Assembly: GCF_035084215.1 (NCBI RefSeq)
Contig: NC_090325.1
Location: forward strand, 102,982,001 to 103,046,000
DNA from: Heptranchias perlo
Lineage: Eukaryota
Direction: 5' to 3'
DNA length: 64,000 nt
Shown: in pieces, positions 1-23,361 of the stretch
Numbering within the stretch: position 1 is the first letter of the stretch
How the letters are laid out: each line of letters opens with the position of its first letter
The notes under the pieces: generated by a model
The model's input: the letters and a program-made list of their open reading frames with translations, nothing else
The model's database searches: none
What the model was told of the DNA's origin: nothing
Translations under genes and position numbers: made by a program

Positions 1-239
1 CAGTGAATGTATTTTGAAGAACTGACACTGAGACACACTAATGGGCATGTATTGTAGACTGTATAACCTAGCTGAAATGCTGTTTCTAAATGAGCATGTT
101 AGTTTGCAGATCTCCTTACGCAAATTATTGGATGGGATTGTGACTCCACAAAGTTGAGTACAGCTGCAGTAAAAGCCTTGGTATAAAACACTGTCAGGTT
201 GAAAATAGTAGGAAAAGTGGATGCTGTGGTTGGACAATG

Positions 240-18170: not shown

Positions 18171-18935
18171 GGCCGGATTTTGCTCTAAGCGGCAAGCGAA
18201 CAAACGGCGCCTGCCGCTCATTAGACTTGGATATTCCGATAGACATTTCATGGGCTTTTGGACTGCAGGTTCATCTTAACGGGTCCTCAGTCCAGTGCGG
18301 CGCTCTCTATAGGGCATCTGGGACCTGTGTGAACAGGGCAAGCTGCTGTGTATCCCCATAACCAATCAAATAGCATTGTTAATAAGCAGAGCAGGCACAG
18401 AACCAGGAAGTGTAAGTTAGAATAGTAAATTCAATGTAAAATCAGTTATAGAAAGTGAAATAAAGAGAGGGTAGGAAATATTGAATTAAAAGACAGATAA
18501 GAGACAAAGAAAAAGTAAAAAATAAAAATGTTAATTCTTTTTAAATGTGCAAATGTAAAGGAATGAGACTCCACACTTGTAAAAGTACATTTTCAGTGCC
18601 GGAGAGATCGTTTGGCAGTAATTAAGACATATGCTGCTAAAATTTTGGTTACACTTTTTAATAAAAAACTTGGTGTATCTTTTTCTGATGAGATTACTTC
18701 GTTTCCATCAGGACTGAAGAGGAACTTCACGCCATTGCAGTCATTTCAATGTTGTCAGCCAGCAAGACCTCCTTCTCACAAAGCTTCTGAAGGAGCAGGG
18801 GCATCTGGTAGTGGAACTTCCGGATTTCTGTGTTTAACTGCGCATGTGCTGTCGCCGGAAGTTCCTCTACCATTTGCACTGAAAAAGCGATGAGCCCTGT
18901 TAGGCCCGCTGTTATTTTTAGAGCAAAATCTGGCC
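18171..18935. mobile_element. Non-autonomous DNA transposon/MITE with 18-bp TIRs (PIF/Harbinger-like termini, tentative)
   Basis: GGCCGGATTTTGCTCTAA (18171-18188) versus the reverse complement of 18918-18935, GGCCAGATTTTGCTCTAA: 17/18 match. CpG-richer ends, no transposase ORF, TSD unresolved. Confidence 0.75.
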
Positions 18936-19450: not shown

Positions 19451-20728
19451 TGTGTATGAAAACTGGGAGCAGCAAACCCATAAACGTTATAAGGAACAAA
19501 TCTGTAACCTCTTCATTTCAAATTCTTATCAAAGAAACATCTGGGTGTTATCAGTTCATGTTGAGGCAAGTACTAGATGTCCTAAATTTGGCCCACTATC
19601 TATTTTGTATCAACTGCTCCAAGTTATATCAATATTTACAGTACTGCTCCCCATTAGGATATATGTAAGTTACTGACTGAGTTAGCCTCTTCTTGCCAAA
19701 GTCATCAGAGGCAGCCAGGCCATGAAATATTTAACTAATTTTTTTATTGACACTTTGAATTTAAAAATCAAACAGTAAATCTACGCACAGTATGTAATTA
19801 ACTGATGGAATTAATAAATTTAACGTTACAAAGGCAGTTTAAGTGTTTCACTGCAACGCAGCATCAGTTTAGCCCTACTTATTACAAGTTCATAGTGTGC
19901 TCAACGTCCAAGATTGACAGTCAGAAAGGATAGTTTAGATTAGGCTCCATGTATAGCTAACAAGTCAACAGCTCTAAATAGCCAGTCTGTTGGATATAGT
20001 AAAAGCCTAGTTAGGCCAGCTTATTGCTGATGAGCTTGCAGCTTTAGCAAAGATTCCAGAAGGTTATAAAACCTTCTTCTCCTGAGTCAACATAGCAGCA
20101 TTGATTCTCTCGTGTTCCTCTGGGATGATTGTGCCCATCTCAGGGACTTAGACGCGATGAATCTCCATCTGTCCGCAGAGTGGTTCTTCCTTGTTCTGAT
20201 GACTGCTCTCCCTTTGTAGAACTAACCTTGCTTTTGTTTTCAGGAACTTAACTCTTTACCAGTCTACACCAAATTATTTATCTATCTCTGGCTAGTAGAG
20301 TTCTTAAATTTAAAGTCTTTCTGAACTCTTGTAACCTCCCTCTGTCAAAAGGTTTCTATCCATCTAACTCTCCCTCTCCCCCTCTTTTTATACATTTTAA
20401 TTCCCAAAATAAATTCCTTTGATACTTTTCAAACCAAACTCTGCTTTGATGCACTTTGTTGTGCGGGTTCCATTATTTAGCGATATCTTTAGTGATATGT
20501 ACTTGAGAAAAGCCAGATCTGCCCATTAGTTGCAAAAAAAAAATATTTTTTTTCACTTTAAATAATAGTGGTAAGACAATCCAAATAAGGATTTGATCAT
20601 TCTCTGGTTTAGGTGTGAAAACTTTTTACTTTGTGTAGCCTAAAATAATGGAGCAAGATAAGGACGGCTGTCCTTTAGGTTATCTTACACAGACAACATA
20701 ACCCTCTATTCAGCCTAGAAAAGTCTTG

Positions 20729-20946
20729 ATGTGGAGATGCCGGTGATGGACTGGGGTTGACAATTGTAAACAATTTTACAACACCAAGTTATAGTCCAGC
20801 AATTTTATTTTAAATTCACAAGCTTTCGGAGACTTCCTCCTTCCTCAGGTAAATGTTTACCTGAGGAAGGAGGAAGTCTCCGAAAGCTTGTGAATTTAAA
20901 ATAAAATTGCTGGACTATAACTTGGTGTTGTAAAATTGTTTACAAT
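20729..20946 (-). mobile_element. Penelope-like element remnant: inverted pseudo-LTR pair plus 34-nt tail
   Basis: Perfect inverted repeat 20763-20853 / 20856-20946, an unpaired 34-nt extension at 20729-20762, and the direct repeat TAGAAAAGTCTTG at 20716-20728 and 20946-20958. Each arm holds a CTGANGA...GAAA core. Confidence 0.85.
20856..20894 (+). ncRNA. Minimal type-I hammerhead ribozyme motif (mirror copy on - strand at 20815-20853)
   Basis: Stem I UUUAC/GUGAA, core CUGAGGA (20861-20867), one extra A, stem II GGAG-gaagu-CUCC, GAAA (20882-20885), self-complementary AGCU in place of stem III, then U17. Activity is not demonstrated. Confidence 0.65.
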
Positions 20947-21049
20947 AGAAAAGTCTTGGTGTAGACAGTTCTGGCCACTGGGAATTGGGTGCTAGCTGCA
21001 AAAGATCATTTATCCTCCTTGGTTACCCATAGCTCTTGGCATTAACTCT

Positions 21050-21369: not shown

Positions 21370-21990
21370 AGTTATGGAAGAGAAATGCCTTTTTAGCCCA
21401 TTCTCCCATGCCCATCCAGGACAAACCTTGCAGCTCCTCCCCCATCACAGTATTAAACTGTTTATTGATTGATTCCAGGGCTTTACCAGTGCTACCCTCT
21501 CCCAAAGTCCATTCCATGTATTAAACACTGTAAAGAACTTCCTGACATCAATCAATTTACTGTTTTAGTTTGAACTTATACACCTTTGTCCTAATGTCAT
21601 GGTTTAACTTGAAATAGTGTTCTGGATTCACTGTTTCAGCACCACTTACCGTCTTATACCTTTGACGTCCCTTCTTAGTCACCTCCTTTTGAGGCTGAAG
21701 AACCCAGGTTTTTCCAGTGATTTCCTTGATTCCTAATGACTCTTGCTAAGAATCATATTTGTGGTATTTTCATGGCTGCTTCCAAGGTTTGAATGTCTCG
21801 CTTGTGTGTTAATCAAAACTGTACAGTATTTGAGCTGCAGTCTGACCAGACTGCTTTACCATTTTAGCATGCCTTCCTTTGATGCGTGCTCTACTGATTA
21901 GGCTAATGTAGTTCCGACTTCTTTGTTGCTGTACGGTGATTGGACATATTGACTCCCTTTGACCTCTCGACTTGGTTATTTCAACCATAC
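21370..21990 (-). mobile_element. Old CR1 3' fragment
   Basis: Antisense CR1 hallmarks (caaaactgtacagtatttgagctgcagtctgacc, ccattccatgtattaaacact); heavily degraded. Confidence 0.6.
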
Positions 21991-22054
21991 AAAGGTTGGG
22001 AATTAAATTTGTTGCTTTGAAGTCTGAAGTCCAATTAAGAATGGGACTTAAGAC

Positions 22055-22745
22055 TACAACAGCTTGCATTTATATAGCGCCTTTGACATAGTAAAACATT
22101 CTAAGACGCTTCTCAGGAGCATTATTAAACAAAATTTGACACTGAGCCCCTCAAGGAGATATTGGGACAGGAGACCAAAAGCTTGGTCAAAGAGGTAGGT
22201 TTAAGGAGCATCTTAAAGGAGGAGAGAATTAGAGAGGTTTAGGTAGGGCCTTGGTAGCTGAAGGTATGGCCGCCAATGATGGATCGATTAAAATCGCCGA
22301 TGTGCAAGAGGCAAGAATTGGAGGAGCACAGAGATCTCGGAGGGTTATAGGACTGGAGGAGGTTGCAGAGATATGCGGGGCGAGGCCATGGAGGGATTTG
22401 AAAACAAGGATGATTGTTTTAAAATCGAGATGCTCCTGGACTGGGAACCAATGTAGGTCAGCGAGCACAAGGGTGATGGATGAACGGGACTTGGTGCGAG
22501 TTAGGGTCTGGGCAGAAGAGTTTTGGTTGAACTCAAGTTTATAAAGGGTGGACGATGGGAGGCCAGCCAGGAGAGCATTGGAATGGTCAAGTCTAGAGGT
22601 AACAAAGGCATGGATGAGGGTTTCAGCAAGATGAGCTGAGGCAGGGGCGGAGATGGAGGTGGAAGTAGGTGGTCTTGGTGATGGAGCGGATATGTGGTCG
22701 GAAGCTCATCTCCGGGTCAAATAGGACGCCAAGGTTGCAAACAGC
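22055..22745 (-). mobile_element. L2 LINE 3' fragment
   Basis: MLADLHWFPVQEHLDFKTIILVFKSLHGLAP is the L2 ORF2 C-terminus. On the minus strand it ends gcgctatataaatgcaagctgttg. Confidence 0.9.
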
Positions 22746-22992
22746 ATGAGCAAGCCAGTTTGTTTTTGCCCGTTAGATTAAAGAGTGACTTAAATGGTCT
22801 CATTTTTGATGGAAAATCCATACAGCATTTTACAAAGTTATGATGTCAAGTAATAACTTGCTAATAAACTGAAAATCTGTTGAAATATTATACCCATTAT
22901 TTGTCTTATCACCAATATGACTGAAGGAGCAGATTTGAAGAACTTCAATAGCTTGGTAAACCTATATTAAGGTAACTAGAAGTAAAATGTAA

Positions 22993-23361
<369 letters not shown>

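What the first reader, a model, noticed from the sequence alone, without database searches (positions are those of the whole stretch)
20815..20894. Back-to-back minimal hammerhead ribozyme motifs inside an essential gene's intron
Seen on + (20856-20894) and mirrored on - (20815-20853): UUUAC-CUGAGGA-A-GGAG(gaagu)CUCC-GAAA-GCU-U-GUGAA, with predicted cleavage after U20889 and an AATAAA about 10 nt downstream. Known: PLE pseudo-LTRs encode minimal type-I hammerheads whose palindromic stem III is thought to require dimerisation. Inference: the sense copy is transcribed in every DHX15 pre-mRNA, but the upstream antisense arm is made first and should trap it in the hairpin. The inverted architecture may therefore silence the ribozyme and polyA signal and make the insertion tolerable.
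Basis: partly seen in the sequence, partly recalled or inferred. Interest (0 to 1): 0.7.

Follow-up and report, generated by a model that had tools for sequence, protein, structure and literature searches.

The report
Mirror-image Penelope stub with flipping centre
The two back-to-back ribozyme motifs are the halves of a 218-base mirror-image stub of a Penelope-type jumping gene in the first intron of DHX15, one of about 540 copies with the same join; its two-letter centre faces either way across copies, which likely means each stub was stitched from two DNA copies of one RNA at insertion, not shaped to protect the gene.

Summary
The motifs are real. They are the arms of a 218-bp insertion (20729-20946): a perfect 91-bp inverted repeat, a one-sided tail and a 13-bp target duplication, in DHX15 intron 1. 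The arm matches the pseudo-LTR of a Penelope-like element (PLE) with an RT/GIY-YIG frame in this genome. 542 sites share this centre.

Masking by the hairpin is predicted, but it looks like a by-product. The single motif is a minimal hammerhead, a type reported inactive alone, and back-to-back arms are common in this family.

The copies bear on how PLEs build inverted arms:
- The arms share a haplotype in 72 of 73 copies.
- The centre reads CA or TG relative to the tail (25:21), in all four haplotypes.
- CG centres outnumber TA 22:1.
- Arms begin about 30 nt behind a TATA box, not at the ribozyme cut.

Best model (inferred): both cut target strands prime on one RNA, and the two cDNA ends anneal through two T·G mismatches. 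This scan reached the two-cDNA reading before, on other DNA. The CG excess was not in the notes or papers I searched.

The parts
20716..20728 (.). Left copy of the target-site duplication (13 nt, including 1-2 nt shared with the element ends)
   Evidence: TSD-like repeats of 11-15 nt in 67 of 73 sister copies
20729..20762 (-). One-sided PLE tail (about 34 nt; copies end 0-10 nt further along the element's own sequence); inferred distal RT start
   Evidence: tail described in PMC8557442 and PMC11167929
20763..20853 (-). Tailed arm: 3' part of the PLE pseudo-LTR
   Evidence: 100% identical to both arms of near-full-length element L096
20814..20854 (-). Minimal type-I hammerhead motif, minus copy (antisense to DHX15)
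20854..20855 (.). 2-nt centre: TG on +, CA on the tailed strand; flips among copies; join at the inferred RNA 5' end
20856..20946 (+). Tail-less arm, ending at arm position about 89-94; inferred proximal RT start
20855..20895 (+). Minimal type-I hammerhead motif, plus copy (sense in DHX15 pre-mRNA); predicted cut after 20889; predicted masked by the hairpin
20900..20905 (+). AATAAA hexamer; use as a polyA signal not shown; one of 19 in the window's part of intron 1
20946..20958 (.). Right copy of the target-site duplication
23010..23349 (+). DHX15 exon 2; exon 1 lies about 12.6 kb before the window start

Best explanation
This is a young, 218-bp, head-to-head stub of an endonuclease-bearing Penelope-like retrotransposon in DHX15 intron 1, and it was likely built at the target site from two cDNA copies of the 5' leader of one element RNA. 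Shown: identity with the pseudo-LTR of an RT/GIY-YIG element, TSD, one-sided tail, 542 sites with this centre, mirrored haplotypes, a flipping centre, a CG excess, and arm starts clustered about 30 nt behind a TATA box. Inferred steps: (1) the pseudo-LTR promoter starts an uncut RNA at about arm position -3/-2, so the hammerhead is at the RNA's 5' end; (2) the element's protein cuts both target strands about 12 bp apart; (3) one cut end primes at the tail end and the other about 35-45 nt upstream, on the same RNA; (4) both cDNAs run off the RNA's 5' end; (5) their near-palindromic 3' ends anneal through a 4-6-bp duplex with two central T·G mismatches; (6) fill-in and then replication or repair fix the centre as CA or TG, and T-excision on both strands sometimes gives CG. 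The hammerheads are passengers. In DHX15 pre-mRNA the sense copy is predicted to be locked in the 91-bp hairpin. The stub lacks the TATA box and ORF and is probably a dead end.
For: PLE identity: L096 has a 915-aa frame with RVT_1 (E 3.5e-10) and GIY-YIG (E 1.8e-4, 22.2 bits against a 22.6 cut-off), and its arms are 100% identical to ours. Abundance: 35 of 40 scored candidates are identical over 218 of 218 nt and 5 over 217; 542 centres against a control of 1; 11,914 subfamily arms. TSD-like repeats of 11-15 nt in 67 of 73 copies. Built per insertion: arm haplotypes agree in 72 of 73 non-redundant copies against 0.32 expected from independent draws. The centre is CA 25, TG 21, CG 1, TT 1 in 48 copies taken in genome order (50 minus 2 duplicates with identical flanks; CA vs TG p 0.66), and both orientations occur in all 4 haplotypes. 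Not a fold-back of the tailed strand alone: in 28 pairs the tailed arm is longer in 10, the tail-less arm in 10, and 8 are equal within 2 nt; in L096 the tail-less arm carries the 3-kb body. One RNA: among 13 pairs reaching past -20, 6 have both arms starting within 20 nt of each other (permutation mean 1.15, p 1.5e-4). RNA 5' end: 24 of 84 arm starts fall in -5..+1, mode -3, and none at +31..37; the TATA box begins 30 nt before -3; 871 more joins have 3-30-nt spacers (control 61). Mismatch intermediate: CG 22, GC/CC/GG 0; TA 1, AT 3, AA/TT 1. CG copies fall in all four haplotypes (10, 5, 5, 2). Background change is 17 of 8120 sites, so about 2 mutated centres are expected in all. Other CpGs are intact in 135 of 140 cases, which rules out CpG decay as the source of the flip. 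Literature: the anole PLE protein cleaves and extends both strands, starts RT at two internal sites that bound the tail, is predicted to be a dimer, and uses uncut RNA (PMC11167929).
Against: All evidence is from genome fossils; no intermediate was observed. Post-insertion inversion between the arms would also give CA about equal to TG and a symmetric long arm. One copy (L161) has discordant arms. Haplotype concordance alone is also expected if only one source locus is active per germ cell. The arm-start sample was chosen for carrying arm positions 1-17 on one arm, so it is biased against starts at the cut site; an unbiased search returned nothing. Many cDNAs run past the proposed start: 8 of the first 50 sites listed join at an upstream 10-bp palindrome, and 37 of 84 arms start beyond -50, so read-through RNAs are also used. 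The start site itself is not shown by RNA reads (only contigs were available). CG could also come from an added C at each cDNA end followed by blunt joining.
Confidence: 0.72

Rival explanations
1. Fold-back or self-priming builds the inverted arm from one cDNA or an antisense template (as proposed in PMC3846280), and the centre is flipped later by recombination or template switching between the arms.
For: It explains mirrored haplotypes (72 of 73) and equal arm lengths directly. Inversion between inverted repeats is an established process (own knowledge).
Against: It needs about half of copies that are only 0.2% diverged (17 of 8120 sites) to have flipped. It does not predict CG 22 against TA 1. 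Nine private arm changes read by eye are all on one arm only. Three duplicated copies with identical flanks all keep CA (weak).
Confidence: 0.15
2. A palindromic non-autonomous master (MITE- or SINE-like) is transcribed and copied whole.
For: There are dozens of exactly identical 218-nt copies, and one join accounts for about 9% of subfamily arms (1084 of 11,914).
Against: It needs at least 8 masters (4 haplotypes by 2 orientations), plus 4 with CG, all with the same join. The stub has no TATA box. Joins form a continuum, and this one is only the most frequent.
Confidence: 0.06
3. One reading: the inverted form is favoured in introns because it silences a ribozyme and polyA signal that would otherwise damage the pre-mRNA.
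For: Masking is predicted strongly. The motif is kept across recurring variants: 96.3% of cells paired, 0 of 500 shuffles as high, 2 stem I pairs with two-sided change. Tandem retrozymes are under-represented in Xenopus introns (bioRxiv 10.64898/2026.07.22.740005, passages).
Against: Inversion is a routine insertion product here. The monomer is reported inactive (PMC4209133) or protein-dependent (PMC11167929), and its fold is no better than shuffles (z -0.75). The window's part of this intron has 19 AATAAA. A perfect 91-bp dsRNA may carry its own cost (editing, dsRNA sensing; own knowledge).
Confidence: 0.1

Closest known systems
EN+ PLE insertions with an adjacent inverted, 5'-truncated pLTR, a one-sided 30-40-bp tail and a TSD (PMC8557442 passages; Pen2a_Av in PMC3846280 passages)
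   Same: Head-to-head arms, tail on one side only, TSD, TATA plus initiator-like sequence in the pLTR, palindrome at the inverted join.
   Different: Here both arms are cut back to the RNA leader (no ORF), one join recurs 542 times, and its centre flips. PMC3846280 reads such joins as self-priming on an antisense template, which does not predict the flip or the CG excess.
Minimal type-I hammerheads of metazoan PLEs (PMC4209133, parts 1-2 of 4 read)
   Same: Conserved core, extra base between positions 9 and 10.1, G10.1-C11.1, palindromic 15.2-16.2, short stem I. That paper also notes dual motifs 100-700 bp apart on opposite strands.
   Different: Stem II is 4 bp rather than 7-8. The two copies are only 12 nt apart core to core on opposite strands, so they cannot form the tandem dimer in one RNA.
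Poseidon_Ac of Anolis in vitro (PMC11167929, parts 1-2 of 4 read; supplement not seen)
   Same: Two RT start sites bounding the tail, both strands cut and extended, hammerhead cleavage dispensable.
   Different: Different clade: the partner here has a CX4CxxC linker and its ORF appears to start at the tail end. In the parts read, the paper does not explain how inverted arms are joined.
Non-LTR retrozymes (bioRxiv 10.64898/2026.07.22.740005, part 1 of 5 and passages)
   Same: Short PLE-derived sequence with a type-I hammerhead.
   Different: Retrozymes are head-to-tail tandems with at least two same-strand motifs; this is head-to-head, with one motif per strand.

Membership tests
EN+ PLE insertion unit | Sequence derives from the pLTR of an element with an RT + GIY-YIG ORF | tested here: met
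   L096 arms 100% identical; RVT_1 above cut-off; GIY-YIG just under cut-off, E 1.8e-4
EN+ PLE insertion unit | Inverted 5'-truncated copy next to the pLTR, with a 30-40-nt tail on one side | tested here: met
EN+ PLE insertion unit | Target-site duplication of variable length | tested here: met
   13 nt here; 11-15 nt in 67 of 73 copies
Neptune/Nematis clades | Zn-finger-like CX2-5CxxC linker between RT and EN; two Cys between GIY and YIG (PMC8557442) | tested here: met
   Both read directly in the L096 translation (features)
Neptune/Nematis clades | RT phylogeny places it in one of the two clades | not tested
   No reference PLE proteins were fetched
Minimal type-I hammerhead | Core CUGANGA...GAAA...UH with stems I and II and palindromic 15.2-16.2 | tested here: met
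   core invariant or nearly so in 16 recurring variants
Minimal type-I hammerhead | Covariation in the stems | tested here: inconclusive
   Stem I has 2 pairs with two-sided change (25 of 500 shuffles as high); stem II has none; the sequences are related and many were first found by motifs inside the hammerhead
Minimal type-I hammerhead | Self-cleavage as a dimer or with protein | not testable with these tools
   Needs an assay; joins at the cut site are rare in the genome
Non-LTR retrozyme | At least two head-to-tail units with same-strand hammerheads | tested here: not met
   One motif per strand, head-to-head
MITE (DNA transposon) | Symmetric terminal inverted repeats and a fixed short TSD | tested here: not met
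   One-sided tail with a ragged end; TSD 11-15 nt

The most novel reading that the evidence does not exclude
The 542 joins are a fossil record of the PLE integration intermediate. Two cDNAs, primed from opposite target strands on one RNA, anneal at the RNA's 5' end through a tandem T·G/G·T mismatch that looks like a doubly deaminated CpG. Replication resolves it 1:1 to CA or TG, and thymine-excision repair converts about 4% to CG (22 against 1 TA). PLEs would then integrate by convergent double priming with no conventional second-strand synthesis, and the inverted pLTR and the tail would both follow from it.
Probability: 0.55. Interest if true: 0.65.

Novelty: new member of a known kind. Interest (0 to 1): 0.45.

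Why it matters
As an RNA device in DHX15 it is ordinary: one of about 540 near-identical stubs. As evidence it bears on an open question. PMC8557442 calls the origin of PLE tandem and inverted structures undefined, and PMC3846280 proposes antisense self-priming. The flipping centre and the CG-over-TA excess separate the models and give exact predictions for the existing in vitro PLE system (PMC11167929). The stubs also add hundreds of perfect 91-bp hairpins to this genome; those in introns would form long dsRNA when transcribed.

Tried and rejected
- Rfam found no hammerhead; the miRNA hits are below gathering scores and reflect the palindrome.
- MITE and retrozyme readings were rejected (see membership tests).
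- CpG decay as the source of the CA/TG flip was rejected: other CpGs are intact in 135 of 140 cases, and the native upstream sequence has CA.
- A single CG-bearing master was rejected: CG spans four haplotypes.
- Ribozyme-cut RNA as a main template is not supported. 94 sites join near the cut; of the first 50 listed, 39 join at the 6-bp stem III palindrome, none is a blunt join at the cut, and at most 6 have an arm starting there. The unbiased follow-up search returned nothing because the words are too common.
- Sequencing runs: no RNA holder was listed on record. Only contigs were available, so start sites, cleavage and editing could not be read, and no empty-site allele was among the joints shown (740 joints not shown).
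- The first exon-1 searches failed through a wrong phase and too short a range.
- A recurrent extra C/G at some joins could be cap-derived, but a native variant explains it equally well; not claimed.
- Literature searches showed no paper describing the flip or the CG excess. The library lacks most subscription journals and Repbase/Dfam, and no supplements were read; those of PMC11167929 may bear on this.
- Findings searches by sequence and for the mismatch-repair wording were empty.

Full report
Observation. The two motifs are present as described. A descriptor scan finds only these two in the window and none in 100 resampled windows; Rfam has no hammerhead hit. They are the inner parts of a 91-bp perfect inverted repeat, 20763-20853 and 20856-20946, with a 2-nt spacer. 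A tail of about 34 nt extends the minus arm to 20729, and a 13-nt direct repeat flanks the unit. Exon 2 of the host matches human DHX15 (E 3e-31). A candidate exon 1 with the right splice phase lies in a CpG island at window -12599 (the motif used was recalled). The insertion is therefore in intron 1, on the gene's strand.

What it is. The 218-nt unit has 35 exact and 5 near-exact copies among 40 scored of 884 candidates. An 18-nt pattern across the centre matches 542 sites against a control of 1. The subfamily arm motif matches 11,914 times, and the hammerhead's 3' half 83,082 times. L096 holds the same arms around a 915-aa frame with RT and GIY-YIG domains and a CX4CxxC linker, which fits the Neptune/Nematis type as described in PMC8557442 (passages). 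The frame's first residues come from the inverted arm, so the copy is near-full-length, not intact. Sister copies have 11-15-nt duplications in 67 of 73 cases and ragged tail ends. This is the known PLE insertion anatomy (PMC8557442; PMC3846280) in miniature.

The ribozyme. The anatomy matches the minimal hammerheads of PMC4209133. Across 16 recurring variants, 96.3% of stem cells pair, stem I has two pairs with two-sided change and stem II none. This is modest support, since the sequences are related and partly selected by hammerhead motifs. The monomer fold is unremarkable (-9.2 kcal/mol, z -0.75). In the pre-mRNA direction the hairpin dominates at every transcript length tested (-168.2 kcal/mol). 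Masking is therefore predicted, but published monomers do not cleave alone, and the anole motif needs protein and is dispensable for insertion. Joins at the cut site are rare. Of the first 100 subfamily arms listed, 48 lie in back-to-back pairs and 4 of those 24 pairs have this join (counted by hand). Inversion is routine, and protection of DHX15 is not needed to explain it. Whether selection filters solo sense arms out of introns is untested.

How the stubs are made. I took the first 50 of the 542 sites in genome order and dropped two with duplicated flanks. The centre, read on the tailed strand, is CA 25, TG 21, CG 1, TT 1, and both main forms occur in all four arm haplotypes. Adding the CG/AT/TA sites gives 73 copies, of which 72 have the same haplotype in both arms (0.32 expected; L161 is the exception). 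A palindromic master would need at least eight versions with one join. In 28 back-to-back pairs with one tail, either arm can be the longer (10:10, 8 equal; two of the pairs are likely tandem duplicates), and long pairs often start at nearly the same place (6 of 13 within 20 nt, p 1.5e-4). Arm starts peak at -3, 30 nt behind a TATA box, and 871 further joins have 3-30-nt spacers. A cDNA ending there has a near-palindromic 3' end that can pair with its twin through two T·G mismatches, which gives exactly this join (inference from the sequence).

Test of the mismatch intermediate. It predicts a 1:1 flip and an excess of CG if both thymines are excised (TDG/MBD4 chemistry, own knowledge). Genome-wide counts are CG 22, TA 1, AT 3, AA/TT 1 and GC/CC/GG 0. 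About 2 mutated centres are expected from the background of 17 in 8120 sites, and a sign test of 22 against 1 gives p about 6e-6 (hand arithmetic). CG copies are spread over all four haplotypes. The model also fits the in vitro finding that a PLE protein extends both strands from two internal RNA sites that bound the tail (PMC11167929).

Limits. No intermediate or RNA start was observed. Post-insertion inversion could mimic the flip, though not the CG excess. Added C plus blunt joining could mimic CG. The arm-start sample is biased (the unbiased search was empty), and many cDNAs run past the proposed start.

Prior work. The structure is known, and the scan's own notes, read after my tests, reach the same two-cDNA and start-site reading on other loci; they are unchecked and are not counted as support. 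Searches did not show the flip in print or the CG excess anywhere. Papers seen: PMC4209133 and PMC11167929, parts 1-2 of 4 of the text; bioRxiv 10.64898/2026.07.22.740005, part 1 of 5 and passages; PMC8557442 and PMC3846280, passages; the others as listings only; no supplements.

Verdict. An ordinary member of a known insertion type. The family's joins make an open mechanistic question testable. Interest 0.45.

Noticed in passing
L262, L265 (G000:C1 about 0.92-1.02 Mb and 198.07-198.27 Mb); similar GIY-YIG hits near ends of C4, C5, C20, C25, C33: A second PLE family repeats about every 8 kb near both ends of C1. L262 has a 732-aa RT+GIY-YIG frame preceded by a 741-aa frame with a weak GDSL-esterase hit (E 0.012). 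L265 has TTAGGG arrays. Distinct type-I hammerheads occur in these loci. It may be a telomere-associated EN+ PLE with an extra ORF.
   Followed up: partly
G000 joins listed; L170, L207, L208: Many joins hold short inserts copied from the element's own nearby sequence or unrelated sequence, resembling end-joining patches.
   Followed up: partly
G000 joins listed: Other join hotspots sit at perfect short palindromes: the 6-bp stem III sequence (39 of the first 50 of 94 sites) and a 10-bp palindrome upstream of the hammerhead (8 of the first 50 listed).
   Followed up: partly
L121-L123 and L183-L185: Insertions copied with identical flanks, that is, inside segmental or tandem duplications.
   Followed up: no
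L247-L253 (window -89,000 to -36,000): CpG-rich blocks repeated at 12-21-kb spacing upstream of DHX15 (the same short frames recur).
   Followed up: no
window 21964-22795: A very high-copy repeat in intron 1 (summed contig depth up to 1e6); not identified.
   Followed up: no
window 18801-18877: Imperfect 23-bp inverted repeat carrying CCGGAAG motifs; not the DHX15 promoter, since exon 1 is far upstream.
   Followed up: no
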